A DNA stretch of 63,413 nucleotides, filler included, from Octopus bimaculoides (lineage: Eukaryota), in the NCBI RefSeq assembly GCF_001194135.2. It is 4 parts of 4 records of this genome, joined end to end, with 100 filler letters (N's around TTAATTAATTAA, not from the genome) between each part and the next. Parts side by side here need not be neighbours in the genome. Positions count along the whole stretch, not along the records: positions 1 to 6,075 come from NC_068982.1; positions 6,176 to 27,077 come from NC_069002.1; positions 27,178 to 52,625 come from NC_069003.1; positions 52,726 to 63,413 come from NC_068987.1. The stretch is one strand, 5' to 3'. The translations under genes and the position numbers were made by a program. Positions 6 through 59,313 of this stretch are shown here, one piece after another (positions within the stretch are counted from its first letter, which is position 1; each line of letters opens with the position of its first letter). The notes beneath the pieces are model-generated. The model had not been told where the DNA came from. It saw nothing but the letters and a program-made list of their open reading frames with translations, and searched no databases.

Positions 6-78
6 TATTCCGCTGACGATAGTTGGCCTTGCAAAATAATTTGTTTTGCTAAAATAACTTGAAACCTGGTTCGGAATA
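6..78 (+). ncRNA. Type I hammerhead ribozyme motif (U10.1-U11.1 variant, GUU triplet)
   Basis: TATTCCG(6-12) CTGACGA(13-19) T AGTT..AACT T GAA(61-63) ACCTGGT T CGGAATA(72-78). Stem I is a perfect 7 bp, the core is intact, and stem III is near-palindromic. Confidence 0.8.
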
Positions 79-312
79 TAGATGGTAAATGTTTTTATTT
101 TTCATTCCTTATCGAAATTATCTCAAATTTTGCGGTGTAGAGCTTTGACTGCTCTTTCTAGCGGGTCAGATGTCCTTTTATGGGCATCTCTAATGTGTAT
201 TAAAATGTACACTGTATTTTACATGAATAATATATAGTCTGTTGACTAATTTTTTTTCTTGCTACACCACTGGTAGTAAATTAAATTTCTTAATTTTTTG
301 CTACCCTAAGAC

Positions 313-347
<35 letters not shown>

Positions 348-713
348 CATATTGAAGATGAATAAAAATGAAAATGCATCTTTAAAAAAAAATGTTTTGG
401 GTGTTTTAATTAATTTACATGCTTCGGTTTTTTTGAAAAACTTTATCAAAAATGAATATAAAACATGTGAGAAGAGAAAAGATCTATTAATAAAATAAAA
501 TTGAAATTAAAATTAAGAATGACATTCATCGTTTACTGTTATTTCTTGCATGCACACGTGGTCCTTTCGTTGAGTTCTGAAAACATGGTAATTCCAACTT
601 GTGCTAGTAGATTACTACTATCTGTTTTAGGAAATTATATATATACCTAATAGATAGATGTATATATATAATAGACATATATATATATAGTATGAATATA
701 TTATATATATATA

Positions 714-828
714 TCATCATCATCATCATCATCATTTAACGTCCGCTTTCCATGCTAGCATGGGTTGGACGATTTGACTGAGGACTGGTGGACCAGGAGG
801 CGACACCAGGCTCCAATCTGATTTGGCA
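714..828 (-). mobile_element. 3' end of RTE-type LINE (short, 5'-truncated) with (GAT)n tail
   Basis: Reverse complement of the CCAACCCATGCTAGCATGGAAAGCGGACGTTAAA(TGA)n terminus also seen at ~1999-2046 and 5844-5900. Confidence 0.8.
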
Positions 829-887
829 AACAGATATATGTATATACATAATAGACATATATATATATATAGATATATATATATAGC

Positions 888-2046
888 AAGTTGTTGGACC
901 AGGTAATGAAGGTCACTGAGAGGGTCATAGCCCAACTAATTAGGGAGCAATAAACACTGAGAATGTGAAGAAAACAACCTTTGCCACACTCCAGGAAGAA
1001 AAACTAGAAGTAGTTGATAGCTTCCGCTACCTAGGTTACCAAGTTAGTAGTGGGGGAGGGTGCGCTGAAAGCGTAGCTCCTAGAATAAGAATAGCCTGGG
1101 CAAAGTACAGAGATCTCTTACCTCTGCTGGTGACAAGGGGCCTCTCACTCAGAGTAAAAGGCAGACTGTATGACGCATGTGTACGAACAGCCATGCTTCA
1201 TGGCAGTGAAACATGGGCCGTGACTGCTGAAGAAATGCGTAGGCTCGCAAGGAATGAAGCCAGTATGCTCCGATGGATGTGTAATGTCAGTGTGCATACT
1301 AGACAGAGTGTAAGTACCTTGAGAGAAAAGTTGAACCTAAAAAGCATCAGTTGTGGTGTGGAAAAGAGATGATTGCGCTGGTATGGTCATGTAGCGAGAA
1401 CGGATGAGGATAGCTGTGTGAAAAAGTGCCACATCCTAGCAGTTGAGGGGACCTGTGGAAGAGGTAGGCCCAGGAAGACCTGGGACGAGGTGGTGAAGCA
1501 AGACCTTTGAACTTTAGGCCTTACTGAGGCAATGACTAATGACTGGGACCTTTGGAAATATGCTGTACGTGAGAAGACCCAGCAAGCCAAGTGAGGGCAT
1601 AAGCTGTGACCTCTGCCAGAAGCATGGCCAGCTCACTTATTCGTATCTTTACATCATTGGACACTAAACTCTGTTTGCTAAGACCTGTTGAGGCAAGTGA
1701 AATTGAAATTGGACCCTACTCGATGACTGGCACCTGCGCCAGTGGAGCAGTAACAGCACTGTCCGAGTGTGTTCATTGCCAGAGCAGCTCTCTGGCTTCC
1801 GTGCTAGTGGCCCGTAAATAGCACCATTTGAGCGTAATCGTTACCAGCATCGCCTTCTAGCACTTGTGCTGGTGGCACGTTAGGAAATCATTTGAGTGAG
1901 TTCGTTGCCAGTGCCGCTGGACTGGCTCCCGTACAGGTGGCACGTAAAAAACACCTTTTGAGCGAGGCCATTGCCAATACCGTTTGACTGGCCCTTATCC
2001 AACCCATGCTAGCATGGAGAGCAGATGTTAAACGATGATGATAATG
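888..2046 (+). mobile_element. RTE LINE copy 1: internally deleted ORF2 remnant, 3'UTR and (GAT)n tail
   Basis: KLLDQVMKVTERVIAQLIRE (888-947) joined to AINTENVKK..EVVDSFRYLG..AMLHGSETWAV..RLRWYGHV..GRGRPRKTWDEVV..KTQQAK* (1594). Premature TGA stops at 1370 and 1508. 3' terminus at 1999-2046. Confidence 0.92.
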
Positions 2047-2199
2047 ATATGTATTATAAATATATAATATATATATATAATATATAATATATATACACAT
2101 ATATATTATATGTATATATATAATATATATATATATATACATATAATATATATACACACATATAATATATATACACATATAATATATATACATATAATG

Positions 2200-2230
<31 letters not shown>

Positions 2231-2235
2231 TAAAC

Positions 2236-2274
<39 letters not shown>

Positions 2275-2340
2275 TATATACATATAATATATATATACAC
2301 ATATAATATATACACATATAACATATATATATAATATATA
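2047..2340. repeat. Compound (TA)n-rich microsatellite
   Basis: Almost pure TA with interspersed CA/TAA variants. Confidence 0.95.
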
Positions 2341-2345
2341 CAAAC

Positions 2346-2515
2346 AGGCATAGGAGTGGCTGTGTGGTAAGTAGCTTGCTTATGAACCACATGTTTCTGG
2401 GTTCAGTCCCACTGCATGGCACCTTGGGCAAGTGTCTTCTACTATAACCTCAGGCCAACCAAAGCCTTGTGAGTGGATTTGGTAGACAGAAACTGAAAGA
2501 AGCCTGTCGTATATA
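2346..2515 (+). mobile_element. tRNA-derived SINE family A, 5' half
   Basis: Head GGAGTGGCTGTGTGGTAAG..GGTTCAGTCCC (A/B-box-like), then GCACCTTGGGCAAGTGTCTTCTACTAT..GAAAGAAGCC. Matches copies at 15936, 39745 and 56134. Confidence 0.9.
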
Positions 2516-2883
2516 TTCATATATATTATATGTATATATATATATTACATGTGTGTGTGTGTGTGTGTGTGAGATGGTTAAATAGAGGGAAATGGGAAAT
2601 AGTAGAGTTCAATATAAGGGGTTACTTTGGAAAAGGATGGAAATAAGAAGTATAAAGGGAAATAAGAAAATAAAAGTATATGTAAGATGTTATAGTTGAG
2701 TTTATATTTTGTCACTACAGATGGAATGTGCGGAGATGTAGATTCCATGTACTGTTCATTCAAAGGAGTCTTTGAATGAACAGACCCTTTTGAATGAAGA
2801 AGCACATTTTTATTACCATGTTAGTCCCATAACGAAATGGTACTAACACAGTAATAAAAATTGGAATAAACAATTTATTTGGG

Positions 2884-4390
2884 ATAAGTAGGAAGGCAGA
2901 CAAATCACAAATCCCTTCAGTTAGATGTCCCTGCTCAATCTGTATAAAAGGTGTAGACAGAAACTCCATAAGATGTACCCGGTATAAGCTATGGACACAT
3001 AAGAGGTGCTGCAATATCAGTGGAAAATTAACAGAGAAAATTGTTTTTGTGTGTGAAAGGTGCACAGGTACAATAAATACCAAAAATATACAGAAAATAG
3101 ATTCCATCACATACCAGGAGGGTAAAAGAGTAGTTGATAGGTTCCGTTAGGTAGGTGACAAAGTCAGTAGCAGGGGCAGATGCTCTGAGAGCATAGCTGC
3201 TAGAAAAGAATAGCCTGGGAAAAGTTCAGAGAGCTTCTATCTCTGCTGGTAACAAAAGGCTTCACGCTCAGAGTGAAAGGCAGACTGTATGATGCCTGTG
3301 TGTGAACAGCCATGCTACACGGCAGTGAAACATGGGCTGTGACTGCTGAGGACATGCATAGGCTTGAAAGAAATGAAGCTAGTATGCTCCACTGGATGTG
3401 TAATGTCAGTTTGAATGCACAACAGAGTGTAAGCATCCTGAGAGAAAAGTTTGACACGGGCAGTATGAGATGTGGTGTGTAAGAGAGACGACTGCATTGG
3501 TATGGTCATGTGATGCATATGGACGAGGACAGCTGTGTGAACAAGTGTTGCACTGTAATGGTGGAGGGAACCTGTGGAAGAAGTAAACCCAGGAAGACAT
3601 GTTGATGAGGTGGTGAAGCGCGAGCTTTCAATGTTTGGCCTCACAGAGACAATGACAAGTAACTGAAACCTTTGGAAATATGCCATGCTTGAGAAGACCC
3701 ATCAAGCCAAGTGAGATCGTACTTGTGGCCAATGCCAGTGTCGTGTAACTGGCCCGTTAAAAGTGCCCTTCAATCGTTGGGTGATATGCTATACTTATGA
3801 ATACCTGTAGAACTGAGTGAAATCATAGTCATGGCTGATGCCAGTGCTGGCTGGCTGGTACCCTTGCCAGTGGCATGTAAAAAGCACCATTCATGCATTG
3901 GGCCTCATGGAGGAAGTGACATCAAGCCGAGTGTCGTGTAACTGACCCGTTAAAAGCACCCTTCAATTGCTGGGCGATATGCTGCACTTGTGAAGACCTG
4001 CTGAACAGAGTGAAATCATAGTTGTGGTTGATGCCAATGCTGTGTGACTGGCACCCGTGCTGGTGACACATAAGAAGCACCATTCAAGTATTGGGCCTCA
4101 TGGAGGCAGTGATAAGTGATCAAGATCCTTGGCGATATACCATGCTTCTGTTGACATGTCAAGCCACGTGAGACTATAGTTGTGATCGATGCCAGTGACA
4201 GTTCCATGGCGCCTGTGCCAGTGGAATGTTAAAAACACCCACTACACTCTCAGAGTGGTTGGCATCATGAAGGGTGCCCAGCCATAGAAACCTTGCCAAA
4301 TCAAATTGGAACCTGGTGCAACCCCTCCCCCCACCTTACCAGTTTTCAGTCAAACCGTCCAACCCATGCTGTTATATGATGGTAATGATA
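2884..4390 (+). mobile_element. RTE LINE copy 2: ORF2 C-terminal part with PHD-like finger, duplicated 3'UTR and 3' terminus
   Basis: ISRKADKSQIPSVRCPCSICIKGVDRNSIRCTRYKLWTHKRC..VCERCTG..VVDRFR*VGD..AMLHGSETWAVTAED..RLHWYGHV. Frameshift near 3210 plus stops. CCAACCCATGCT terminus at ~4359-4372. Confidence 0.92.
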
Positions 4391-4472
4391 CACACACTCA
4401 CACACATATATGTGCATATATAAATGTGTGTGTGTGTATCCAAAAATTGGACAATAGAGTAGATAAAATCCA

Positions 4473-4556
4473 GACTACATATGTTTCATAGCTAGCAGAA
4501 CCTTGGAAGTAGTAATTATCCAAATGAGAGGTAGACGGCTAGCTACTCATCAGGCC
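4473..4556 (-). ncRNA. Type I hammerhead ribozyme motif (GUA triplet, palindromic stem III ACAUAUGU)
   Basis: Minus strand reads GGC CTGATGA G TAGCTAGC..(41 nt)..GCTAGCTA T GAA ACATATGT A GTC. Core intact, 8-bp stem II closed by G-U, 3-bp stem I. Confidence 0.85.
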
Positions 4557-4631
4557 AAGGATGCCTTGATTACATGAAGTTTACATTGTCATTAGGAGAT
4601 TCTGTGTTAACTTGCTGAGGGTTCGATCAAA

Positions 4632-4688
<57 letters not shown>

Positions 4689-4807
4689 GGTAAAGCAAAT
4701 TTTAGAGGTAATACTTGATAATTGTAAGCACCTGTATATGCCAGATAGTGGCCGAGGTGAAAGAATAAATTAAAAACGTAAAATCAAAACAAAACACAAA
4801 GGATTCC

Positions 4808-4906
4808 ACGGAACACGTGTTTCAAGCTTTATACACAAACAGTCGTTGCATCATAATATGAGTATATAATTGATAGATAGGATGGTATAAAGCTATCTTC
4901 AGCCGC
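4808..4906 (-). ncRNA. Type I hammerhead motif in IR1 left arm (GUU triplet)
   Basis: Minus strand: GCGG CTGAAGA T AGCTTTATAC..GTATAAAGCT T GAA ACACGTGT T CCGT. Confidence 0.75.
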
Positions 4907-5002
4907 AAATATATTCTTTCCCAAGATTATATCACAAAGAAGAAATCACTAAGAAAAAAGAAAAAGAGAGAGAAACAGGAGAGAGTGGGAAAGAATATAT
5001 TT

Positions 5003-5101
5003 GCGGCTGAAGATAGCTTTATACCATCCTATCTATCAATTATATACCCATATAATGATGCAATGGGTGTTTGTGTATAAAGCTTGAAACATGTGTACCG
5101 C
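5003..5101 (+). ncRNA. Type I hammerhead motif in IR1 right arm (GUA triplet)
   Basis: GCGG(5003-6) CTGAAGA(5007-13) T AGCTTTATAC(5015-24)..GTATAAAGCT(5075-84) T GAA ACATGTGT A(5097) CCGC(5098-5101). Confidence 0.82.
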
Positions 5102-5132
5102 GGAATCCTTTGTGTTCTGTTTTAATTTTACA

Positions 5133-5169
<37 letters not shown>

Positions 5170-5445
5170 TATATATGCATATATATAAGTATGTATATTT
5201 GTATTTAGACACAATATATTAAGATTTAGTTGAATAAGGTACTGGGTTAGGTCAGAATTAAAATGCATACAGAGCAATTATAGACAAATGCCAACATTAG
5301 TAGAGAAGTACTGGTAGAAGGATATGTATGCAATTGACTGAACCCAAATAAGAATATCATCAGCCCTTGGAATAATTCAGAAACACACCTTTTATTAAAT
5401 ATAGAGTCCGTAATATACTTCAGAACATGTGAGGGGAAGGTGTCA

Positions 5446-5533
5446 ATTCATTACAACTGTTTCTAACGAATTCTTCAATTGATCAATGAGTACATCATAT
5501 CATTATAAAAAAAAACATTGTCTTCAGATGAAT
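5446..5533 (-). ncRNA. Type I hammerhead motif in IR2 left arm (GUA triplet)
   Basis: Minus strand: ATTCAT CTGAAGA CAATG..CGTTA GAA ACAGTTGT A ATGAAT. Perfect 6-bp stem I; stem II weak (C10.1-A11.1). Confidence 0.75.
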
Positions 5534-5675
5534 ACATGAATTTAACAATCAAGAACATCAATAATAATAAACATATTTGGTGATGCCATGATCGATGCTT
5601 ATCAACATGTGTCAATCGTGGAACCACCAAATATGTATGTGCTGTGAATTAAAAATATGATTGTAAAATTCGTGT

Positions 5676-5761
5676 ATTCATCTGAAGAAAAGAATTTTTT
5701 ATAATTATATAATGTACTCATTGATCAATTAAAGAATTTGTTAGAAATGGCTGCAATAAAT
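5676..5761 (+). pseudogene. Degenerate hammerhead copy in IR2 right arm
   Basis: ATTCAT CTGAAGA..GTTA GAA ATGGCTGC A ATAAAT. Stem III, the cleavage triplet (GCA) and stem I are mutated. Confidence 0.6.
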
Positions 5762-5804
5762 TAACACCTATCCGACATTTGTCAATTATTTATTTTGTAT
5801 TTAG

Positions 5805-5843
<39 letters not shown>

Positions 5844-5844
<1 letters not shown>

Positions 5845-6075
5845 CATCATCATCATCATCATCGTTTAACGTCCGCTTTCCATGCTAGCATGGGTTGGAC
5901 GATTTGACTGAGGACTGGTGCAACCAGATGGCTACACCAGGCTCCAATCTAATTTGGCAGAGTTTCTACAGCTGGATGCACTTCCTAACGCCAACCACTC
6001 AGAGAGTGTAGTGGGTGCTTTTACGTGTCACCCGCACGAAAACGGTCACGCTCGAAATGGTGTCTTTTATGTGCC
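5844..6075 (-). mobile_element. 3' end of RTE LINE running into a gap
   Basis: (CAT)n then CGTTTAACGTCCGCTTTCCATGCTAGCATGGGTTGG, near-identical to 714-828. Confidence 0.85.
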
Positions 6076-6175
6076 NNNNNNNNNNNNNNNNNNNNNNNNN
6101 NNNNNNNNNNNNNNNNNNNTTAATTAATTAANNNNNNNNNNNNNNNNNNNNNNNNNNNNNNNNNNNNNNNNNNNN
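6076..6175. other. Artificial gap spacer: 44 N + TTAATTAATTAA + 44 N (assembly artefact)
   Basis: The identical 100-bp construct recurs at 27078-27177 and 52626-52725. TTAATTAATTAA gives stops in all six frames. Confidence 0.95.
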
Positions 6176-6229
<54 letters not shown>

Positions 6230-6244
6230 GCTTTACTTGTTGGT

Positions 6245-7545: not shown

Positions 7546-7643
<98 letters not shown>

Positions 7644-18075: not shown

Positions 18076-19047
18076 ATACGTACAACAGTTATGGATCGAG
18101 TAAGGGAGAAGGATAAATGGCAAAGAGAAATATTCTTCCCATGACAAAAAATACGCCTCAAAAAAAAACCGAGTCAAGAGAAAAAACAATACATAATCTA
18201 TTGAAAAATTCTCACAATGAGACAAAAACATAAATATTCCATTTATAGTGACATATATTCATAGAAATCATGCCATCTTACATTAGCCTACACAATATCT
18301 GGCAATTCTATGCCTGTCATTAAATCTTAGTAAAATAGATCTTCAAATTATTTAGAGCCGATTACAACCACCAAATCGTAAAAGATTCTTAAAATAGGTG
18401 AAATTCACACCAGAAGAAATAATGAGGGTAACAAAGTGTGGTAACCTATCTTCGCTGTGGTATATGGGAATTAACTGAACAGGGCAAAAAAAGTTTTCTG
18501 AGATCTGATTTCGAAACCATGGTCTACGGATAACATTATATTTTCACTAGTCTCACCCATATGTTTTTGCTTCGCTAAATTTTCTTTGAGAACTTTTCGA
18601 TGATCTTCTTCTAGCACGTTAGCAGTCCACTTAGTGGTCTCTTTTATATACACATGTACTATAATCCTTTTGAGATCTCAGAAAATTTTTTCTGAATCTT
18701 CTGATTCTTTTAATGTGCCGGTTTCCTGGTATTAAATTGATATTAATTAATATCCAGTTTTTTACCCTACTATTTAATTGTGTATATATATACGACGAGC
18801 TTCTTTCAGTTTCCATCAACTAAATTCACTCGAAAATAATTAAGGATAAAATCATTAAAATTACCAGTGGCCACCAGGTAAAATAGACCTATTTTGGTGC
18901 CGCATCTGCCCAATGCTTATATTTATTTACTATTGTTTGCATAAGGCCCCGAAAACAGCTGTCGGACCTGTGACATCATACCATCTCCCCTTTTTATTCT
19001 CCGTGACTTTGTACTCTGTTAGTTTGTTTTGTTAAATATGAATGTCT

Positions 19048-23344: not shown

Positions 23345-23637
23345 CTATCTATCTATACACAGAGAGAGAGATATAGAGATAGAGAGAGAGGAAGAGGGAG
23401 AGGGAGATAGAGAGAGAGAGATATATTTCGAAAGATAGAGATATATATATAGAGAGAGAAAGAATATATATATAGAGAGATATACATATATAGATAGGGA
23501 GAGGGAGAGATATATATAGAGAGATAGAGAGAGAGAGATATATAGAGAGAGAGAGATATATAGAGAGAGAGAGATATATATATAGAGAGAGAGAGATATA
23601 TATATAGAGAGAGAGAGAGATATATATATATAGAGAG

Positions 23638-23698
<61 letters not shown>

Positions 23699-24029
23699 TA
23701 TAGAGAGAGAGAGAGATATATATATAGAGAGAGAGAGATATATAGAGAGAGACATAGATAGATATATATATAGAGAGAGAGAGAGAGAGCGAGATAGATA
23801 GAGAGAGAGAGATAGATATATATGTAGAGAGAGAGAGAGATAGATATATATATATAGAGAGAGAGCGAGAGATATAGATAGAGAGAGATAGAGATAGATA
23901 TATATATATAGACATAGAGATATAGAGAGGGAGAAAAAGAGATAGGGAAAGATATAGAGAGATATATATATATATAGAGAGAGAGAGATAGAGAGAGATA
24001 GATATAGATAGAGAGAGAGATAGATATAG

Positions 24030-24060
<31 letters not shown>

Positions 24061-24375
24061 TAGATAGATATAGAGATAGAGAGATATAGATAGAGAGATA
24101 TAGAGATAGAGATAGAGAGTGATAGAGATAGAGAGATATAGATAGAGATATATATAGAGAGAGAGATAGAGATAGAGAGAGAGATAGAGATAGAGAGTGA
24201 GAGAGATATAGAGAGAGTGATATAGACAGAGAGAGAGAGTGGGAGAGAGAGAGAGAGAGATATATATATAGAGAGAGAGAGAGATAGATAGAGAGATAGA
24301 GGTAGAGAGAGAGAGAAAGAGAGATATCGAGAGAGAGAGAGAGAGAGAGATAGAGAGATAGAGAAAGAGAGAGAG

Positions 24376-24412
<37 letters not shown>

Positions 24413-24817
24413 TAGAGAGAGAAAGAGAGCGAGATATAGAGAGATGGAGAGATAGAGAGATAGATAGAGAGAGAGATAGAGAGAGAGATAGATAGAGAGA
24501 GAGATATACAGAGATAGAGATATACAGAGAGAGAGAGATAGAAAGATATACAGAACTAGAGATATACAGAGAGAGAGAGATGGAGAGAGAGAGATGGAGA
24601 GAGAGAGAGAGAGATACAGAGGTAGAGAGAGAGAGAGAGAGCGAGATATATATAGAGAGAGATATATATAGAGAGAGAGAGATAGAGAGAGGGAGAGAGA
24701 AAGAGAGATACAGAGATAGAGGTAGAGATAGAGAAAGAAAGAGAGATAGATAGAGAGACTGAGATATATATATAGAGAGAGAGATAGAGATAGAGAGAGA
24801 GATAGAGAGAGACTGAG

Positions 24818-24868
<51 letters not shown>

Positions 24869-24989
24869 GAGAGAGAGAGAAAAAGAGAGAGAGAGAGATA
24901 TATACAGAACTAGAGATATACAGAGAGAGAGAGAGAGAGAGAGATGGGGAGCGAGAGAGAGATAGAGAGATAGAAAGAGAGACTGAGAT

Positions 24990-25020
<31 letters not shown>

Positions 25021-25549
25021 TATAGAGAGAGAGAGATATATATAGATAGAGAGAGAGAGAGATAGAGTGAGACAGAGATAGAGATATAGAGAGAGATAGA
25101 GAGAGAGGAAGAGATATAGAGAGATAAAGAGAGAGAGAGAATGAGAGAGAGAAAGAGGGAGATAGAGAGAGATAGAGATAGAGAGAGAGAGAGAGATAGA
25201 GAGAGAGATGGAGAGAGAGATAGAGAGAGAGACAGAGATAGAGAGAGAGAGATAGAGGTAGAGAGAGAGAGAGAAAGAGAGATATCGAGAGAGAGAAAGA
25301 GATATCGAGAGAGAGATATATATATAGAGAGAGAGAGATATACAGAACTAGAGATATACAGAGAGAGAGAGAGAGATATATATATATAGAGAGAGAGAGA
25401 GAGAGTGAGAGAGTGAGAGAGAGAGAGAGTGAGAGAGTGAGAGAGAGAGAGAGTGAGATACAGAGAGAGATAGAGAGAGAGAGAGAGAGATAGAGAGGTA
25501 GAGAGAGATAGAGAGAGACTGAGATATATATATAGAGAGAGAGAGATAG

Positions 25550-25589
<40 letters not shown>

Positions 25590-25855
25590 AGATATATATA
25601 TAGAGATAGAGAGAGAGAGATTGAGAGAGACTGAGATATATATATAGAGATAGAGACAGAGAGAGATAGAGAGAGAGAGACAGAGAGTGGGAGAGAGATA
25701 GAGAGAGAGAGAGATGGATAGAGAGAGAGACTGAGATATATATATATATAGAGAGAGAGAGATAGAGATATATAGAGAGAGAGTGGGAGAGAGAGAGATA
25801 GAGAGAGAGAGAGACTGAGATATATAGAGAGAAATAGAGAGAGAGAGAGAGAGAG

Positions 25856-25886
<31 letters not shown>

Positions 25887-26033
25887 TACAGAGAGAGAGA
25901 GAGATAGAGAGACAGATAGAGATAGAGATAGAGAGAGGGAGAGATATAGAGAGAGAGAGATAGAGAGATAGGGATAGATAGAGAGAGATAGATAGATAGA
26001 GAGCGAGAGAGATAGAGAGAGAAAGAGGGAGAT

Positions 26034-26117
<84 letters not shown>

Positions 26118-26521
26118 CTAGAGAGATAGGGATAGATAGATAGCGAGAGAGAGAGAGAGAGATAGAGAGATAGAGAGAGAGAGATAGACACAGAGAGAGA
26201 TATATATATATATAGAGAGAGAGAGAGATAGACACAGAGAGAGATATATATATATAGAGAGAGAGAGATATATATATATATAGAGAGAGAGAGATAGCGA
26301 GAGATAGAGAGAGAGAGAGAGAGAGGAAGAGATATAGAGAGATACGTAGAGAGAGAGAGAAAGAGGGAGATAGAGAGAGAGTGAGAGAGAGAGAGAGCGA
26401 GATATATATAGAGAGAGAGATAGAGATAGAGAGACAGAGGTAGAGAGAGATAGAGAGAGAGAGAGATATACAGAGATATACAGAGAGAGAGAGAAAGAGA
26501 CAGATAGAGACAGAGAGAGAT

Positions 26522-26555
<34 letters not shown>

Positions 26556-26910
26556 NNNNNNNNNNNNNNNNNNNNNNNNNNNNNNNNNNNNNNNNNNNNN
26601 NNNNNNNNNNNNNNNNNNNNNNNNNNNNNNNNNNNNNNNNNNNNNNNNNNNNNNNGAGAGAGAGAGAAAGAGAGAGAAAGATAGATAGAGAGAGAGAGAG
26701 AGAAAGAGATAGAGAGAGATAGAGATATACATAGAGAGAGATAGAGATATACAGAGAGAGAGATAGAGATAAACAGAGAGAGAGATAGAGAGAAACAGAG
26801 AGAGATAGAGAGCGAGAGAGAGATAGAGATAGAGAGAGAGATATATAGAGAGCGAGATAGAGAGCGAGATAGAGAGAGAGAGATATATATATATATAGAG
26901 CGATAGAGAT

Positions 26911-26941
<31 letters not shown>

Positions 26942-27006
26942 TATACAGAGAGAGAGAAAGAAAGAGATAGAGAGAGATAGAGATATACATAGAGAGAGAT
27001 AGAGAT

Positions 27007-27057
<51 letters not shown>

Positions 27058-27077
27058 AAGAGATATAGAGAGATACG
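23345..27077. repeat. ~3.7-kb compound (AG)n/(AT)n microsatellite with an internal gap
   Basis: Near-continuous AG/AT dinucleotides. This tract produces the 948-aa SLSL ORF artefact. Confidence 0.97.
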
Positions 27078-37938: not shown

Positions 37939-37983
37939 GGTGTATATACATATTTCAGGAGTTATTGCTCCTTCATCAGCACC
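37939..37983 (-). ncRNA. Compact type I hammerhead motif (AUA triplet)
   Basis: Minus strand: GGTG CTGATGA AGGAG caataa CTCCT GAA ATAT gt ATAT A CACC. All three stems pair and the core is intact. Confidence 0.85.
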
Positions 37984-39039: not shown

Positions 39040-40630
39040 AAGGGCGGAATTTGCGCTGAGGTCTTGCACTTTGGCCGGGTGGTGTCTCACAAAAGCTTCA
39101 CGAACTTATTAGTGCAATCCGGAAGAATGGTGCTGTCCCCAAGGACTTGAAGGATGCAATTGTCCTTCTCTACAAGGCAAAAAGAACAGAATAAAGTGTG
39201 ACAATCATAGAGGTATCACTCTACTGCCAGCTGCTGGCAAGGTTCTGATAAGTATTCTTCTTACTCGCTCGAATAAATACTTTGTAACTGATGTCTTTTC
39301 TGAAACTCAATGTGGTTTCTATTCTGGTAGAGGAACAAGGGAAATGATTTTCACAGCAAGACAGATGCAGGAGAAATGTTATGAGAAGAATCAGCATCGT
39401 GTCCAGATTTTCATTGATTTAAACAAAACCTTTGATATAGTGAATAGAGCCTCCCTGTAGAAAATACTTGGCAAACTTGGTTGTCCGAGTCGTTTGTATT
39501 GATAATTAAATTGTTTTATGATGGGATGGAGGCCTAGGTTAATGTCGGTGGTGGCATGGCGGGATCCATTCCTGTAGAGAATGGTGTCAAGCAAGGTGAC
39601 ATCCTTGTGCCAACTTTCTTTTCCTTGTATTTTGTTGCTAGTCGCATTCGTGCTTTCTCGGTGAATTGCATTTCTACTCTCACCTTTCTTCAAGTAGAAC
39701 TTGGAGTCGAAAAGAACTTAGCCGAAGAAGAAAATAGCTCTCTTTACTCTTTTACTTGTTTCATGCTGGAGCACCGACTTTTTATTAGTCGAGCAAATCG
39801 ACCCCAGGACTTATTCTTTGTAAGCCTAGTACTTATTCTATCGGTCTTTTTTGCCGAACCGCTATGTTACGGGGACGTAAACACACCATCATCGGTTGTC
39901 AAGTGATGGTGGGGGGACAAACACAGACACACAAACATATACACACACATACATATATATAAATACATATATACGACGGGCTTCTTTCAGTGTCCGTCTA
40001 CCAAATCCACTCACAAGGCATTGGTCGGCCCGAGGCTATAGTAGAAGACGCTTGCCCAAGGTGCCACGCAGTGGGAATGAACCCGGAACCATGTGGTCGG
40101 TAAGCAAGCTACTTACCACACAGCCACTCCTGCGCTCTCTTCAGTTCTTTCAAATGAGTCCAGCACACAGCCTATGTTACCATAGTTACCGAATACAGGA
40201 GAACTTCGCAACTAAAAGAATGCAGTGCGGTGGTCTCCGTGATGGACTTCATGATAATCGGATCCGTCCTATACACACTAGCTGTTCGCTAAAAATCCAG
40301 AATTCAGCAATGCTCGTACATTGAATGAGTAAGTACAGAATAGTTACGTCCCTCTGTGCGTATCTTGAACAAGCTTGAATAGCAGCGTTACCATGTCTAT
40401 AGAAATATCATGAAGTGGCTGTGCCTCCCACAATCATTTTCATATCAGAGATTTGTGGAAGTTATCCATAAATCCGGGACTGAATGTCATTCAGAACAGA
40501 CAAGCCAGTTAATCTTACTCAATATCCAGCTCTTACCCGAGAACATAGTCGCTGCCCTCCCCCACACCATTTGTCCTCTACGGAGTGTTAAGATGGAAAT
40601 TCTATTGAGCTCATTACTCGGCACGTGGGG
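39040..40630 (+). mobile_element. Decayed RTE (BovB-like) ORF2 fragment interrupted by SINE A
   Basis: NHRGITLLPAAGKVL..ETQCGFYSGRGTREMIFTARQMQEKC..FIDLNKTFDIVNR..NGVKQGDILVPTFFSLYF. After the SINE come weak VMDFMIIGSVL, VYRNIMKWL and VLYGVL matches. Confidence 0.85.
39745..40135 (-). mobile_element. SINE A nested in RTE
   Basis: Full-length reverse copy. GCTCTCTT at 39737-39744 and 40134-40141 is TSD-like. Confidence 0.92.
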
Positions 40631-46666: not shown

Positions 46667-46707
46667 CATTGTCTGAAGAGTCATTATGGAAACGACTGGT
46701 TGCAATG
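46667..46707 (+). pseudogene. Degenerate hammerhead-like motif
   Basis: CATTGT CTGAAGA GTCATTATG GAA ACGACTGGT T GCAATG. Stem I is 6 bp and the core is present, but stem II does not pair. Confidence 0.4.
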
Positions 46708-46800
46708 CTACACAGAATATTCAGCTATGATTACATATGTGTGTATATTCTGTGTTTGTGGGTCTGTAAGGTATACTTTTTTTATGACTATAGAGTTACA

Positions 46801-47546
46801 GTGGAGGCGCAATGGCCCAGTGGTTAGGGCAGCGGACTCACGGTCATAAGATCGCGGTTTCGATTCCCAGTCCGGGCGTTGTGAGTGTTTATTGAGCGAA
46901 AACTCCTAAAAGCTCCACGAGGCTCAGGCAGGGGATGGAGGAGAACCCTGCTGTACTCTTTCACCACAACTTTCTCTCACTCTTACTTCCTGAGTTTCTG
47001 TTGTGCCTGTAATTCAAAAGGTCAGCCTTGTCACACTCTGTGTCACGCTGAATATCCCCGAGAACTACGTTGAGGGTACACATGTCTGTGGAGTGCTCAG
47101 CCACTTGCACGTTAATTTCACGAGCAGGCTGTTCCGTTGATCGGATCAACTGGAACCCTCGACGTCGTNNNNNNNNNNTAGGGCAGCGGACTCACGGTCA
47201 TAAGATCGCGGTTTCGATTCCCAGTCCGGGCGTTGTGAGTGTTTATTGAGCGAAAACTCCTAAAAGCTCCACGAGGCTCAGGCAGGGGATGGAGGAGAAC
47301 CCTGCTGTACTCTTTCACCACAACTTTCTCTCACTCTTACTTCCTGAGTTTCTGTTGTGCCTGTAATTCAAAAGGTCAGCCTTGTCACACTCTGTGTCAC
47401 GCTGAATATCCCCGAGAACTACGTTGAGGGTACACATGTCTGTGGAGTGCTCAGCCACTTGCACGTTAATTTCACGAGCAGGCTGTTCCGTTGATCGGAT
47501 CAACTGGAACCCTCGACGTCGTAAGCGACGGAGTGCCAACAACAAC
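46801..47546 (+). mobile_element. One SINE C copy shown twice across a 10-N gap (46825-47168 = 47179-47522)
   Basis: Both parts share the same private variants (CTCACGG, AAAACTCC, CCTGAGTTTC). Outer flanks ACTATAGAGTTACA / ACTAATAGAGTAACA are TSD-like. Confidence 0.9.
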
Positions 47547-52337: not shown

Positions 52338-52377
52338 GGCCATGACGAAGGGAAATAGCCCTGAAACTCGAGTCGCC
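52338..52377 (+). ncRNA. Minimal type I hammerhead motif with a 1-nt insertion in the core (GUC triplet)
   Basis: GGC C[A]TGACGA AGGG aaatag CCCT GAA ACTCGAGT C GCC. Confidence 0.7.
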
Positions 52378-52725
52378 TTTATATATATATATTTATATAT
52401 TTGATCCTTTATATTGAACACTCAATATTTCATCTACATTCAATACTTTCTTTCATGGTGCCATCCATTTTTATTTTATTTTATTTTATATTGTATATTG
52501 TATATCATATTATATATTGTATATTCCATATTCTATACCCCACATTAGTTCTGCAGGAATATAAATAAAACATAAAAAACAGACAGTGTTGGAACTCTTT
52601 TAAGCAAAATAATATATTCCTCTATNNNNNNNNNNNNNNNNNNNNNNNNNNNNNNNNNNNNNNNNNNNNTTAATTAATTAANNNNNNNNNNNNNNNNNNN
52701 NNNNNNNNNNNNNNNNNNNNNNNNN

Positions 52726-52736: not shown

Positions 52737-52769
<33 letters not shown>

Positions 52770-52798
52770 GGAGGAGGAGGAGGAGGAGGAGGAGGAGA

Positions 52799-52833
<35 letters not shown>

Positions 52834-53450
52834 AGTGGTGGTGGTGGTGGTTGAGGTAGTATTGATAGTGATGCAAAAGATGATGATGAGGAAGATGATG
52901 AGAGGGTGAAGGAGGAACGACGAGAAAGAGAAGAATAGGAGAAGAGGGAGAGGGAGCGGAAAAAAGTGATGGATGAGAGTAACGATGGTAATACTGCTCA
53001 TGATGATGATGATGATGATGATGATGACGATGACAACGATGACGATGACGATGATGATGGTGATGACGATGTTGATGATAACGATGACCATGATGTGGAC
53101 GATGATGGATGATGAAAATGTTTGCCAAGGATTCAATCCTGCTCCCTTGCTCCACCCGTTACCCCTATACCTCTCTCCCACCTTCTCTCCTTCTCTACCC
53201 ACTCTCTCTATCCACTCACTCTTTCCCTCTCTCTCCCTCCATCTCTCTCTCTCCCTCCATCTCTCTCTCTCCCTCCATCTCTCTCTCTCCCTTCATCTCT
53301 CTCTCTCCCTCCATCTCTCTCTCTCTCCCTCCATCTCTCTCCCTCCATCTCTCTCTCCCTCCATCTCTCTCTCTCCCTCCGTCTCTCNNNNNNNNNNATC
53401 TCTCTCTCTCCCTCCATCTCTCTCTCTCCCTCCATCTCTCTCTCTCCCTA
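52726..53450. repeat. (GAG)/(GAT) tracts followed by a CT-rich minisatellite (CTCCCTCCATCT(CT)n units)
   Basis: Directly visible. Confidence 0.9.
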
Positions 53451-54078
53451 CCCACCGCTTTCCCTCTTTTAGTTGAAACAGCTGCGCTAGTTTCCTTTAA
53501 ACGATGCAGTTACCAAGCAACAGGTACCATTTTTTTCTCCCTGCCTTTTCTCCCTCTTATGATAGACATATGATAAGTTACTGCAACGACAGCCAAAATA
53601 CCAATAAATATTATGGCTACTCATGTTTTCTCATCACAGTGAACAATAACTCAAATTATCCAACGAAAGATCTTCTAGGTGGTCGTTCCGAACAGCTGGA
53701 AATAACAGCTGGAAATAACAGCAGAACATCTCTCAAGCCACACCGTAATAGTTGCCCATGTTTATATGAATTTATTTAAATTAAAACATCAGGATTGTCT
53801 CCCTTAGTTTATCTGGTTAAGAATTTATTCTCGAGCTAACGATTTCATTTTCTTCTCTCTGCGAGTGTAAATTGCTTCATTAAAATTTCTTGATTCAGCC
53901 ACATGATGTTTGCACTGGCTTAACTGTTTTTTTTTCTTTTTTGCAGAAAAGGACCCTAAGTATTTCTTGAATCCTCGGTCATGGTTATAGGAAGGTAGTA
54001 GTAGTAATAGTAGTAGTAGTAGTAGTAGTGATGATGATGATGATGATGATGGCGGTGATAATGTACATGCACACACAA

Positions 54079-54125
<47 letters not shown>

Positions 54126-54196
54126 ATTACATACATACATTATTATTATTATTATTATCATTATTATTATTGTTGCTGTTGGTGTTGTTGTTGTTG

Positions 54197-54266
<70 letters not shown>

Positions 54267-54269
54267 GAT

Positions 54270-54485
54270 TAAGGCGGCGAGCTGGCAGAATTGTTAGCAC
54301 GCGGGACGAAATGCTTAGCGGTATCTCCGCTGCGTTCTGAGTTCAAATTCCGCGAAGGTCGACTTTTGCTTTTCAGCCTTTCGGGGTCGGTTAAATAAGT
54401 GCCAGTGAAACATTGGAGTCAATGTAATCGACTATTCCCCTCCCCTCAGATTTCAGCCTTGTGCCTACAGCAGAAAGGATTATTA
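54270..54485 (+). mobile_element. SINE B with GCCTACAGCAGAAAGGATT-type tail and (ATT)n
   Basis: Full head and body inside an (ATT)n tract. Confidence 0.9.
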
Positions 54486-55585
54486 TTATTATCATCATCA
54501 TCATCATCACTATCACATCATAAAGAATTACATTAGACATTTATGCATGCAATATATTTTTAGGAACATTAAAGAATATTAAATATATCTGTTATAAGAG
54601 ACGGGATATTTTAAATGAAGTTCGTATTGAAGAGATGTAAATTTTATTCCATTTCTGAATGTTCTCTTTAAGCAGAGATAATTGTTTAAGAGTTTAACAT
54701 ACTTCGATAAATTTAATCTTTCGATGTTTCACATAATTTTGAATTTGGCAGACTCTCAGCGTCAAACACGATTAAATGACTGTTTCTAGATAATTTCCGT
54801 TTATATGAAGTGGATGTTAGGAATTTAGTAAATGTAGATCATTGCATTGATTTTATGACAACCATCTCCTTATTCCAAACATGAAATAGAGAAGGGTGCT
54901 AACAACATTTTCTACCGATGTACGAATCATTCCGACTAAGAAATGTTGATTACGTATTCAGATATTAAGTCACGTGTTTAAGGATACGGGGAATTGTTGT
55001 TGTTATTTTTTGTTGTTGATGATGATGATGTTGTATAAACTTAGGTTAACCCTCACCAAGCAGACCGATCGTTAAACTCATTCCCACGGTGACCATCCTG
55101 TCTTTTTTTAGAAGCATAGAAAACTAAATTATCTAATCATTCTATCATATTTACTGCTTTCAGTCACTGGACTGCGACTATGTGGGGCCACTGTTTTGAA
55201 GATTTAGTCATATAAATCGACCCCCACCATTTATGCTTCGTTAAACTCTGATAGGTATTCTATCCTTCACTTTGCCGAATTGCTAACTTACAGGGCGAAA
55301 ACAAACCATCACCGATTGCCAAGACATATAAACACACACACACACACATGCACAATTAAAGAAGTGATTTTCTCCAATTCTTATTCTTACTGCCTTATAC
55401 TCTGAAATTTTTGAAATTCTTCGAAGCGTTATTTGAATTTACTTGTCAACCATGAAGAATTACCTACAATGATAATCCTACTTGCATTTATTGGTATCTG
55501 ATTCTTTGATGTGTTTAACCAAATTCGTTTAGCACTGAGTGCTTTTATAGATATCTTCCTGGATTTATTAATCCTTTTTACTTCT

Positions 55586-55648
<63 letters not shown>

Positions 55649-56013
55649 NNNNNNNNNNNNNNNNNNNNNNNNNNNNNNNNNNNNNNNNNNNNNNNNNNNN
55701 NNNNNNNNNNNNNNNNNNNNNNNNNNNNNNNNNNNNNNNNNNNNNNNNNNNNNNNNNNNNNNNNNNNNNNNNNNNNNNNNNNNNNNNNNNNNNNNNNNNN
55801 NNNNNNNNNNNNNNNNNNNNNNNNNNNNNNNNNNNNNNNNNNNNNNNNNNNNNNNNNNNNNNNNNNNNNNNNNNNNNNNNNNNNNNNNNNNNNNNNNNNN
55901 NNNNNNNNNNNNNNNNNNNNNNNNNNNNNNNNNNNNNNNNNNNNNNNNNNNNNNNNNNNNNNNNNNNNNNNNNNNNNNNNNNNNNNNNNNNNNNNNNNNN
56001 NNNNNNNNNNNNA

Positions 56014-56049
<36 letters not shown>

Positions 56050-56133
56050 TGCATATAGATATGTATGTATATACACACACACATACATACACACATGCAT
56101 ACATACATACATGCATACATACATACATACATG

Positions 56134-56480
56134 CGTGGCTGTGTGGTAAGAAGCTTGCTTCCTAATCATTTTGTTCCAGGTTCAGTCCCAGTGCGTGACA
56201 CCTTGGGCAAGTGTCTTCTACTATAGCCTCGGGCTGACCAAAGTCTTGTGAGTAGATTTTGTAGACGAAAGCTGAAAGAAGCCCATCGTGTACATGTGTG
56301 TGTATGTGTGTGTCTTTGTGTCTGTGTTTGCCCAGACCACCCCCACCCCCATCACCTCTTGACAACCTGTCTTGGTGTGTTTTTGTCCCCGTGACCTAGC
56401 GGTTCGGCAAAAGTGACCAATAGAATAAGTACTAAGTTTAAAAGATAAGCTTTGGGGTCGACTTGTTCGACTAAAATAAA
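56134..56480 (+). mobile_element. SINE A
   Basis: Head through GGGGTCGACTTGTTCGACTAAAA. Confidence 0.9.
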
Positions 56481-56821
56481 GTTCTCAGCGAAACAGCTGT
56501 TGCAAAACTACTATACTATATATATATCATATATGAGCAATCTAGCCCAGAAGGTTCTTTCGATGTGGCGAAAGTGAAAGTTGGCATTTTTTTTTTATTG
56601 CCGGCGAGGAGCTGCGCCTGCGCAGTAAATCTGAAGAATTAGGATGTATAAACGAGAGGCATAGAATTGATTACCACGTGTTTATATATTTTAGTCGTAG
56701 GTGTACCTGCTGAAAACGACTTCACCTAGCAAATTAGGGACTCAGATATAACTGAAAAGCTCCAAAATATATACGGGTTGTATGCTGACAGCCTGATATA
56801 AATTATTAACGTGATTTTATC

Positions 56822-56883
<62 letters not shown>

Positions 56884-57271
56884 CATGCATGTGTGTGTAT
56901 ATGTATGAAATATGTGTGACCTGCGAACTGTCTGTGCGTGCTTATTTTTATGTTAAAAGGACGTTACCATTTTATAATTCAAATGAAATACAAAATGTCT
57001 ATGTGCAATACGATGCTATTTGCATCATTGATAGTACAAAACAAGATTCAAGCAGACATTACGTCATAACTTATTACTCCACAAGGTTGGGCAAATTGCA
57101 CCTTGTCTCTAACCTGGTCTCTAACATTTGAATCTGGAGTATAATTTAGACCTGTTCCACAAGGAGTGCAAATAAATAAATATATTAATTAATTAATTTA
57201 TTAATAATCAACATCATACAGAATATCCCGTCTGATTTAATAAATATATAGCCTTAGCCGCTATTGATGTT

Positions 57272-57329
<58 letters not shown>

Positions 57330-57715
57330 CAGCAGCAGCAGCAGCAGCTACAGAAGAAGGGAGGGAGAGTAGGAAAAAAAATAAATAAGAAAAAGAAGGG
57401 AAGAGGAGGAGAGAAAGATATTTCGGGCGCAGAGAAATGGTTAATGGGAGAAAAGGATGAAAGAAGATGGCCGGATTACAATGAAGAAGACGGAAAACGA
57501 GGTGGGGGGGGGGGAGAATAGTGATGAAAGAAGGAGAATAATGATGAAGGAGAAGTAAAACGGAAGAAGTAAAAGAAAAAACCTGGAGGAGAAAGAAACA
57601 AAGTGTTATTATCAATTATCGATGAGGTCTTTACTCAAATACTTGAGCCTGGAATTGTGAAATACCGAGATATTTCATATATCACTATTTCTCTCTCTTT
57701 CTTTCTTTCTCTCCC

Positions 57716-57780
<65 letters not shown>

Positions 57781-58650
57781 NNNNNNNNNNNNNNNNNNNN
57801 NNNNNNNNNNNNNNNNNNNNNNNNNNNNNNNNNNNNNNNNNNNNNNNNNNNNNNNNNNNNNNNNNNNNNNNNNNNNNNNNNNNNNNNNNNNNNNNNNNNN
57901 NNNNNNNNNNNNNNNNNNNNNNNNNNNNNNNNNNNNNNNNNNNNNNNNNNNNNNNNNNNNNNNNNNNNNNNNNNNNNNNNNNNNNNNNNNNNNNNNNNNN
58001 NNNNNNNNNNNNNNNNNNNNNNNNNNNNNNNNNNNNNNNNNNNNNNNNNNNNNNNNNNNNNNNNNNNNNNNNNNNNNNNNNNNNNNNNNNNNNNNNNNNN
58101 NNNNNNNNNNNNNNNNNNNNNNNNNNNNNNNNNNNNNNNNNNNNNNNNNNNNNNNNNNNNNNNNNNNNNNNNNNNNNNNNNNNNNNNNNNNNNNNNNNNN
58201 NNNNNNNNNNNNNNNNNNNNNNNNNNNNNNNNNNNNNNNNNNNNNNNNNNNNNNNNNNNNNNNNNNNNNNNNNNNNNNNNNNNNNNNNNNNNNNNNNNNN
58301 NNNNNNNNNNNNNNNNNNNNNNNNNNNNNNNNNNNNNNNNNNNNNNNNNNNNNNNNNNNNNNNNNNNNNNNNNNNNNNNNNNNNNNNNNNNNNNNNNNNN
58401 NNNNNNNNNNNNNNNNNNNNNNNNNNCAAATTTAAAAGAAAAGTCTTTTTAAAAACATATTTGTGTAATATTCAAATACCAGGGGCATTTTCCTTGTTTC
58501 TGTCTGTCTCTGTTTCTCTTGTTAACTCTTGTGGGTTCGAGGTCGTTGTGAATTCTTTCCGATACTGAATATATCTTTTCATAATGTAACCTCGTGGGCA
58601 TCGGTACCATTTTCCTCTTTCTCTGTTCTTCCATTCTCCGAACTTTCCAT

Positions 58651-58686
58651 CTTTCCGACGAAGGGCTACGCCCGAAACGTCATACA
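58651..58686 (+). ncRNA. Hammerhead-like variant (CCGACGA core) in a Penelope pLTR-like segment
   Basis: CTTT CCGACGA A GGGC tac GCCC GAA ACGT C. U4 is replaced by C, and stem I is poor. Confidence 0.45.
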
Positions 58687-58772
58687 CTCTCTCTTTCCTT
58701 TCCTGAGCGTCCAATAATACTATCCATATCACGTCCTCACTTTGTTGTTTTTTGGTTATTGTTTTTTTTAAC

Positions 58773-58808
<36 letters not shown>

Positions 58809-58895
58809 CGGTAGAAAGATTAGGGAAATTTTCTACCAGTGGCTAATATGCATAAAATAGTCGATAGACAACATATTTTTCATATAAAATTAGTG

Positions 58896-59313
58896 TACAT
58901 TTATACACAAAAGAGGTGACCCTAACAGGATACCTTACATGCTAAAAGGACAGTCAAAACCCAAACCACGGTTACGAGTAATTTTGAAGGGGATGAAAAA
59001 AAACATTTTCAATAGTTACCACTTGTACCTAGGTTTCGAACATCAATGAACAAATAAAATAATTTGTTATCCGTGTTCTCATCAGCAAGGGCGCTACAAT
59101 TAACGTATAATTATAAGACAAATAAACAGCACATGCCTGATGTTTATAAAGATGAGGCATGATGTTCGAAACCTAGGTACAAGACGTAACTATTGAAAAT
59201 GTTTTTATTTTTCATCCCCATCAAAATTACTCTTAAGCGTGGTTTGGGCTTTGACTGCTCCTTTTAGCATGTAAGGTGTCCTGTTAGGGTCATCTCTTTT
59301 GTGTATAAATGTA
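58896..59313. repeat. Inverted repeat IR3 (arms 58896-59045 and 59160-59313)
   Basis: ~150-bp reverse-complementary arms around a 114-bp spacer. Confidence 0.93.
59022..59089 (-). ncRNA. Fully canonical type I hammerhead motif (G10.1-C11.1, GUA triplet, palindromic ACCUAGGU)
   Basis: Minus strand: CTTG CTGATGA GAACA..(31 nt)..TGTTC GAA ACCTAGGT A CAAG. Confidence 0.9.

What the first reader, a model, noticed from the sequence alone, without database searches (positions are those of the whole stretch)
6..59183. Dense, unannotated population of minimal type I hammerhead ribozymes from several unrelated families
Seen in sequence: seven motifs have an intact CUGANGA...GAAA core, an NUH triplet and a paired stem I (6-78 +, 4473-4556 -, 4808-4906 -, 5003-5101 +, 5446-5533 -, 37939-37983 -, 59022-59089 -). 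Damaged or half copies lie at 5676, 10709, 46667, 52338, 56490, 58651 and 59163. Their flanks are unrelated to each other, so at least six families are present. Nearly all have a self-complementary stem III too short to close alone (ACAUAUGU, ACACGUGU, ACCUAGGU, ACUCGAGU, ACAGCUGU). Established: this minimal, dimer-dependent type I architecture is characteristic of Penelope-like element pLTRs and metazoan retrozymes. Inference: octopus carries a large, diverse PLE/retrozyme ribozyme repertoire, mostly ORF-less here, and some of it may be undescribed.
Basis: partly seen in the sequence, partly recalled or inferred. Interest (0 to 1): 0.75.

Follow-up and report, generated by a model that had tools for sequence, protein, structure and literature searches.

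The report
Penelope retroelement tails carrying hammerheads
The self-cutting-RNA (hammerhead) motifs are real and are likely all tail ends of Penelope-type jumping genes, a kind already described in octopus; the surprise is a sister lineage with thousands of copies whose hammerhead keeps its predicted fold but has changed a normally fixed catalytic letter.

Summary
All seven motifs are real (6 strict hits vs 0.04 in shuffles). Each belongs to a dispersed repeat family. Three families (B, C, D) lie 0.9-2 kb behind Hydra-clade Penelope-like ORF remnants in other copies. A, F and E were not traced to an ORF. Copies are mostly 5'-truncated stumps ending at microsatellites; 39 of 155 loci hold an inverted copy, only 6 a same-strand one, so these are not tandem retrozymes. 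A Hydra hammerhead from Octopus bimaculoides, U·U at 10.1/11.1 and GUU triplets are already published (Craig 2021). The genome holds about 25,000 such cores. Two 'damaged' sites are not decay: 58651 and 10709 belong to a Neptune-type minimal-hammerhead class of 11,706 copies, only 909 with canonical CUGA; at least 6,322 carry A6U with intact stems. I found no A6U lineage in print, but one key paper was unavailable. Cleavage is untested. The scan noted similar PLE-end hammerheads on other DNA of this genome.

The parts
6..78 (+). Family A hammerhead (U·U at 10.1/11.1, ACC-U-GGU stem III, GUU triplet); 3' tail runs to about 312, then (TTA)n
   Evidence: 1,880 first-look candidates, 40 scored; core intact in 17 of 22 copies, GUU in 15 of 17; related to F; no ORF link found
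4473..4556 (-). Family C hammerhead, 3' end of a Hydra-clade PLE
   Evidence: 2,036 candidates; Hydra-type endonuclease remnant about 0.9 kb upstream in L063 and L589, and the C motif follows the shared UTR in 4 of 4 fetched loci
4665..4985 (-). Family B 5'-truncated 3' end; hammerhead at 4805-4909; ends in (TA)n
   Evidence: 1,235 candidates; Hydra ORF link
4986..5144 (+). Inverted copy of family B, same insertion; hammerhead at 5000-5104
   Evidence: 159-nt arms, 92% complementary
5438..5769 (.). Family D inverted pair: hammerhead 5446-5533 (-) and damaged copy at about 5676-5760 (+)
   Evidence: self-inverted, 76%; 466 candidates; colinear Hydra RT/thumb/linker remnants upstream in one locus, L531
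10620..10730 (-). 3' half of the Neptune-type minimal-hammerhead class; its tail matches the CUGU (A6U) lineage, the 5' core half is missing here
37939..37983 (-). Family E hammerhead (short stem II, AUAUGCAUAU palindrome in most copies, AUA triplet)
   Evidence: 904 candidates; core intact in 24 of 31 copies; no ORF link found
46667..46709 (+). Probable remnant: core and 6-bp stem I present, stem II collapsed
   Evidence: read from sequence; no relative among held loci
52338..52378 (+). Hammerhead with an altered core start (extra A after C3, or C3A) and ACUCGAGU palindrome, followed by (TA)n
   Evidence: one 97% relative with the same change in L153
56484..56505 (+). 3' half only (GAAA plus ACAGCUGU palindrome), joined to an unrelated common repeat; unconfirmed
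58574..58778 (+). Young Neptune/Nematis-type PLE 3' end; core CCGACGA (U4C) at 58655-58661, stem I broken as the family norm; ends in (TA)n
   Evidence: copies 94-99% identical, 2,008 candidates; ORF link
59022..59089 (-). Family F hammerhead (ACCUAGGU, GUA)
   Evidence: 221 candidates; no ORF link found
59159..59330 (+). Inverted, 5'-truncated copy of family F (3' half of the motif plus tail); end approximate

Best explanation
These motifs are hammerhead-shaped RNA elements at the 3' ends of Penelope-like retroelements (shown for four families, inferred for the rest), likely left as 5'-truncated stumps when reverse transcription aborted. Shown: family B, C and D motifs lie behind Hydra-clade ORF remnants on the same strand, the 58651 family behind Neptune/Nematis-type ORFs, and copies have variable 5' ends, inverted partners and microsatellite 3' junctions. 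Inferred: the encoded GIY-YIG endonuclease nicks AT-rich or (TA)n DNA and the RT copies the RNA from its 3' region, so the ribozyme end is the part always retained; a template or strand switch gives the inverted copy; new (TA)n tails attract later insertions, hence the cluster. In a tandem parent transcript two motifs would pair through their palindromic stem III and cut weakly, probably with protein help. The window's copies are solo or opposite-strand, so they likely cannot form that dimer in cis and are probably inert.
For: B: L031 holds a decayed ORF with PADKT, CNCVTPSTC (CxCX5C) and a C-terminal endonuclease, followed 1.7 kb later by the B motif and an inverted 3' copy upstream. 11 of 17 loci with a closely related endonuclease have B sequence downstream on the same strand. 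C. D: one locus. 58651 family: 7 of 20 endonuclease loci carry its tail 1.4-2.5 kb downstream, plus L204 and L324. Inverted partner in 39 of 155 loci. Microsatellite within 450 nt: A 19/27, B 33/36, C 29/33, D 27/34, F 27/30, against 33% of 2,366 control windows. Hydra features and hammerheads as published. Dimer model and weak activity: Cervera 2014. Protein-assisted, dispensable cleavage in another PLE: Frangieh 2024.
Against: No ORF link for A, F or E: searches meant to walk upstream returned tail or inverted-tail sequence or no loci. E has a microsatellite nearby in only 12 of 31 copies, close to the 33% background. D rests on one locus with the endonuclease missing. Pfam did not recognise the Hydra fragments, so the clade call rests on motifs; no tree was built. 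No cleavage was tested. RNA reads show no start or end piles at B or C, though such libraries are a weak test.
Confidence: 0.85

Rival explanations
1. Some families are non-autonomous non-LTR retrozymes: short tandem units that yield circular RNA and borrow PLE enzymes. Most plausible for E and for the CUGU lineage.
For: No ORF found for A, E or F. In the CUGU lineage the 3' end is followed by a fixed 5' leader in about 18 of 30 loci, and two cores lie about 450-520 nt apart on one strand in L079, L474, L475 and L494/495. Retrozymes are described as pLTR derivatives.
Against: Same-strand second copies in only 6 of 155 loci of families A-F; 5' ends vary continuously; B extends 1.5 kb or more into an ORF. 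Partial tandems are also normal for autonomous PLEs.
Confidence: 0.1
2. The 58651/10709 class is a rewired hammerhead: the conserved downstream YGAG...GUC-YUCR helix supplies stem I and the cleavage site, as in the core-opened layout proposed in an earlier scan note.
For: On 30 loci chosen by the upstream half alone, 25 keep CYGAGnG and 21 keep GUCYUC downstream. The four-pair helix is compatible in 64 of 66 parsed sequences (66 of 89 unique; many are near-copies), with UGAG/CUCA and CGAG/CUCG forms.
Against: An ordinary adjacent stem I exists and covaries (pair 4: C-G 44, G-C 14, A-U 7 of 86), so no permutation is needed. The covarying positions of the downstream helix are CpG-decay sites, and the regex constrained the letters.
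Confidence: 0.1
3. The motifs are chance matches in AT-rich repeat DNA.
For: The descriptor was fitted after seeing the motifs; single-strand MFE folds do not give the hammerhead fold for most, as expected for dimer-type motifs.
Against: 6 vs 0.04 in shuffles; 25,494 vs 2,558 and 11,706 vs 0 genome-wide; fixed position behind PLE ORFs.
Confidence: 0.01

Closest known systems
Hydra-clade EN+ Penelope-like elements, including Hydra-1_Obim (Craig et al. 2021, PMC8557442; Files S1, S2)
   Same: DKT, CxCX5C linker, C-terminal endonuclease, (TA)n insertion, 3' hammerhead with palindromic stem III; U·U beside the core and GUU triplets appear in File S2.
   Different: By eye none of the window's motifs matches the Hydra-1_oBim row (not run as a comparison). 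Elements are longer (3' UTR 0.9-1.7 kb, B element at least 4.6 kb against under 3 kb published), stem II extensions reach 40-75 nt, and the genome holds many families rather than one.
Minimal hammerheads of metazoan PLEs (Cervera and de la Pena 2014, PMC4209133)
   Same: The 58651/10709 class has that layout: 4-bp stem I, extra base after A9, G10.1-C11.1, ACGU with no loop III. Solo and opposite-strand paired copies are also described there.
   Different: Most copies here have a non-canonical core fixed in the lineage (A6U in at least 6,322 copies; U4C with broken stem I in a young family). The parts read report only the U3-A8 core variant.
Metazoan non-LTR retrozymes (Cervera and de la Pena 2020, PMC7229834; Li et al. 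2026, 10.64898/2026.07.22.740005)
   Same: Type I hammerhead with palindromic stem III, non-coding, dispersed.
   Different: No tandem arrays for families A-F, variable 5' truncation, contiguity with ORFs; circular RNA not shown.
Natural core variants A6C (phage Bcep176), U4C (viroid), U10.1·U11.1 (Perreault 2011, PMC3088659; Naghdi 2020, PMC7151607)
   Same: Substitutions at the same core positions occur in nature with reduced activity.
   Different: Those are single examples. Here A6U is the majority form of a multi-subfamily retroelement lineage; its activity is unknown.

Membership tests
Type I hammerhead (minimal, dimer type) | CUGANGA, GAAA and NUH with stems I and II | tested here: met
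   7 of 7 window motifs; intact core in 115 of 179 copies of A-F
Type I hammerhead (minimal, dimer type) | Short palindromic stem III | tested here: met
   Perfect in B 19/28, C 7/14, E 14/24, F 11/14, D 3/18 (others near); A is ACC-U-GGU in 13/17
Type I hammerhead (minimal, dimer type) | Self-cleavage at H17 | not testable with these tools
   No assay; read piles absent in a weak test
Hydra-clade PLE | DKT motif and CxCX5C linker before a C-terminal GIY-YIG-type endonuclease lacking CCHH | tested here: met
   Family B: L031, L182. C: endonuclease remnants only. D: RT and linker remnants in one locus. Absence of CCHH judged by eye
Hydra-clade PLE | Contiguity of motif and ORF for families A, E, F | tested here: inconclusive
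   No link found; most copies extend under 400 nt upstream
Hydra-clade PLE | Insertion into (TA)n or other microsatellite | tested here: met
   A, B, C, D, F 70-92% vs 33% control; E 39%, not enriched
Hydra-clade PLE | RT phylogeny within Hydra | not tested
   No tree built
EN+ PLE insertion structure | 5' truncation with inverted copy | tested here: met
   39 of 155 loci, a few overlapping
Neptune/Nematis-type PLE (58651 family) | RT, then CX2-5CxxC linker, then C-terminal GIY-YIG with CCHH, upstream of the motif | tested here: met
   L341, L343, L334 translations; tail downstream in 7 of 20 loci. Neptune vs Nematis not separated; 'Neptune' is my recalled reading of the endonuclease motif
Neptune/Nematis-type PLE (10709, CUGU lineage) | Motif contiguous with such an ORF | tested here: inconclusive
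   One locus (L312) joins a GIY-YIG fragment directly to the core; otherwise by homology of the motif only
Canonical hammerhead core (58651/10709 class) | U4 and A6 conserved | tested here: not met
   909 of 11,706 have CUGA; 75 of the 100 listed are CUGU (counted by hand); 58651 family is CCGA
Non-LTR retrozyme | Head-to-tail units each with an intact hammerhead | tested here: not met
   A-F: 6 of 155 loci with a same-strand copy. Not excluded for the CUGU lineage. The assembly is gappy at repeats
Non-LTR retrozyme | Abundant circular RNA | not testable with these tools
   Only ordinary RNA-seq available
Naiad PLE | N-terminal endonuclease; no canonical hammerhead | tested here: not met
   Linked ORFs have C-terminal endonucleases; short motifs of the 58651 class are absent from Naiad entries of the Craig supplement (line breaks could hide a match)

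The most novel reading that the evidence does not exclude
The most successful hammerhead-bearing PLE lineage in this genome has swapped the catalytic A6 for U in at least 6,322 copies across several subfamilies, yet still conserves stems I and II, GA, GAAA and ACGU while N7 and H17 vary and H17 is never G (0 of 51). A second, very young family has U4C and no stem I and still spread. So either the PLE hammerhead fold is kept as a protein-binding or priming signal rather than as a cutter, or U6 is a new, protein- or metal-rescued active core.
Probability: 0.3. Interest if true: 0.65.

Novelty: new member of a known kind. Interest (0 to 1): 0.38.

Why it matters
The seven motifs add families to a published class. 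Two things go beyond that. First, scale: about 23,000 excess intact cores imply that Hydra-type elements, known from one octopus family, are a major repeat class here. Second, why PLEs keep hammerheads is open: cleavage was dispensable in vitro for one element, and Craig et al. call the function unclear. Sister lineages with CUGA, CUGU and CCGA cores in one genome are a natural experiment that one cleavage assay series could read.

Tried and rejected
Rfam scan: only simple-repeat miRNA noise among the matches listed. The repeat finder was swamped by a GA array. Pfam missed the Hydra fragments. No PLE ORF remnant in the window itself (Hydra queries, Neptune queries). Sequencing-run search: no RNA holder listed. 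Reads from three raw RNA runs and one contig set laid on 4420-5120: 207-350 reads per raw run, 0-2 at 99% identity or more, 84-91% running on into unlike sequence, both directions, no start or end piles. Upstream walks that failed: one search hit another element's tail; one search hit the A tail; one search hit the inverted F tail; searches gave no loci. A second Hydra endonuclease query led to another hammerhead family in 8 of 30 loci, none of the window's. I first read the 58651/10709 class as lacking stem I and as having an invariant downstream CUGA; both were wrong, the second being an artefact of my pattern. A Naiad origin and a GACG/CGUC helix inside the core were dropped for lack of support. 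Lunse 2017 (about dimeric PLE hammerhead variants) was not held.
Full report
Observation. All seven motifs are present. Six pass a strict descriptor against 0.04 in 200 shuffles; the seventh needs a 3-bp stem I, a form I did not shuffle. The descriptor tolerates a mismatch at the first stem II pair and was written after seeing the motifs. Rfam listed no hammerhead among the 150 of 186 matches shown. The seven motifs are six insertions: 4805/5000 is one inverted pair, and 5676 and 59163 are inverted partners of 5446 and 59022. Families A and F are related (71% over 114 nt).

Each motif is a repeat family. First-look candidates were A 1,880, B 1,235, C 2,036, D 466, E 904 and F 221; 40 were scored each and these are not copy numbers. 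Among distinct copies the core is intact in A 17/22, B 28/34, C 14/33, D 18/32, E 24/31 and F 14/27. The pair beside the core is U·U in A and B, G·U in C, A·A in D and A-U in E. GUU is the norm in A but a private change in the window's 4805 copy (family GUA 27/28). Genome-wide, two exact patterns give 9,050 and 16,444 matches against 1,310 and 1,248 for reversed controls. The window has 3 against about 0.7 expected, so the density is mostly the genome's, with a local cluster in the first 6-kb piece.

What carries them. Copies have ragged 5' ends. Of 155 loci, 39 hold an inverted copy and 6 a same-strand copy (a few loci overlap). A microsatellite lies within 450 nt in 70-92% of A, B, C, D and F copies, against 33% of controls; E is at 39%. 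Extending B gave L031: a decayed ORF with PADKT, CNCVTPSTC and a C-terminal endonuclease, a 1.7-kb UTR, the B motif and an inverted 3' copy in front. These are the Hydra-clade traits in Craig et al.. In the reverse direction, 11 of 17 loci with a close endonuclease have B sequence downstream, and 14 of 43 more distant ones have other hammerheads. C follows a Hydra-type endonuclease in L063 and L589 and follows the shared UTR in 4 of 4 loci fetched out of 32 found. D follows colinear Hydra RT remnants in one locus, L531. A, F and E were not linked.

Mechanism. Shown: position at element 3' ends, truncation, inversion and microsatellite junctions. Inferred from published work: endonuclease nicking of AT-rich DNA and reverse transcription from the 3' region, with protein-assisted cleavage that was dispensable in vitro; weak, dimer-dependent cleavage through the palindromic stem III. 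Opposite-strand partners cannot supply a cis dimer, so the window's copies are probably inert. RNA reads neither support nor exclude cleavage.

The 'damaged' sites. 58651 belongs to a young family (94-99% identical, 2,008 candidates) in which CCGACGA and a broken stem I are the norm. 10709 is the 3' half of a related motif on the minus strand. The class has 11,706 exact matches against 0 controls; 909 have CUGA; 6,322 match a CUGU core with a perfect CUUU/AAAG stem I and H17 not G. Stem I pair 4 covaries between subfamilies (66 of 86 Watson-Crick against a shuffled mean of 36 and maximum of 49); shared ancestry inflates this, as it reflects about three lineage states. CUGU copies range from 77% to 100% pairwise identity, median 86% over 20 copies, with N7 and H17 varying. 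The 58651 tail lies 1.4-2.5 kb behind C-terminal endonucleases with a CX4CxxC linker in 7 of 20 loci, which is Neptune/Nematis type; no tree was built. The CUGU lineage has one such link and frequent partial tandems. A conserved downstream YGAGCGU...GUCYUCR element is unexplained.

Comparison and novelty. Craig 2021 File S2 lists Hydra hammerheads, including Hydra-1_oBim, with U·U and GUU features; Perreault 2011 reports U·U tolerance, A6C and U4C; A6C shifts activity to Mn. An ORF in L031 resembles the published Hydra-1_Obim protein by eye, consistent with an octopus genome. Searches showed no survey of octopus hammerheads and no A6U retroelement lineage; I judged most hits from listings only. 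Lunse 2017 was not held and may already cover such variants.

Earlier scan notes describe PLE ends with inverted copies and retrozyme-like families on other DNA of this genome. One proposes a core-opened hammerhead in Naiads. It prompted my look at 58651, but a sequence look-up found no match, and this class has an ordinary stem I and C-terminal endonucleases.

Verdict. The finding as given is real and is a set of new members of a known kind. The A6U and U4C lineages are the part worth an experiment.

Noticed in passing
   Followed up: partly
window 18513-18525 (+): GAAA plus ACCAUGGU-C palindrome without a 5' core; possible half copy.
   Followed up: no
L031:7728-9470 (+): A second decayed Hydra element, resembling published Hydra-1_Obim by eye, inserted right after the family B tail; its relatives carry another hammerhead about 550-580 nt after the ORF.
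   Followed up: partly
L031:4676-5400; L166, L182, L088: Family B and D ORFs carry a long Asn-rich low-complexity insertion just before the CxCX5C linker.
   Followed up: no
L212-L251: At least two further Hydra families with their own long-stem-II hammerheads 0.75-1.3 kb after the endonuclease.
   Followed up: partly
L471-L500: CUGU-lineage 3' ends are followed by a fixed 5' leader, giving partial tandems with cores about 450-520 nt apart.
   Followed up: partly
L300, from about 1560 on the matched strand: 3' tail of another repeat runs into the start of a Hydra ORF, apparently a tandem junction.
   Followed up: no
window 23361-27073: About 3.7 kb of degenerate (AG)n array ending at a pack joint.
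   Followed up: no
window 46823-47522: Two 354-nt direct copies, 97% alike, starting with a tRNA-like stretch; probably a SINE dimer (label by eye).
   Followed up: no
window 944-1369 (+), 39538-39903 (+), 62617-63081 (+): Open frames that look like LINE (RTE-type) and DNA-transposon remnants by eye; not searched against families.
   Followed up: no
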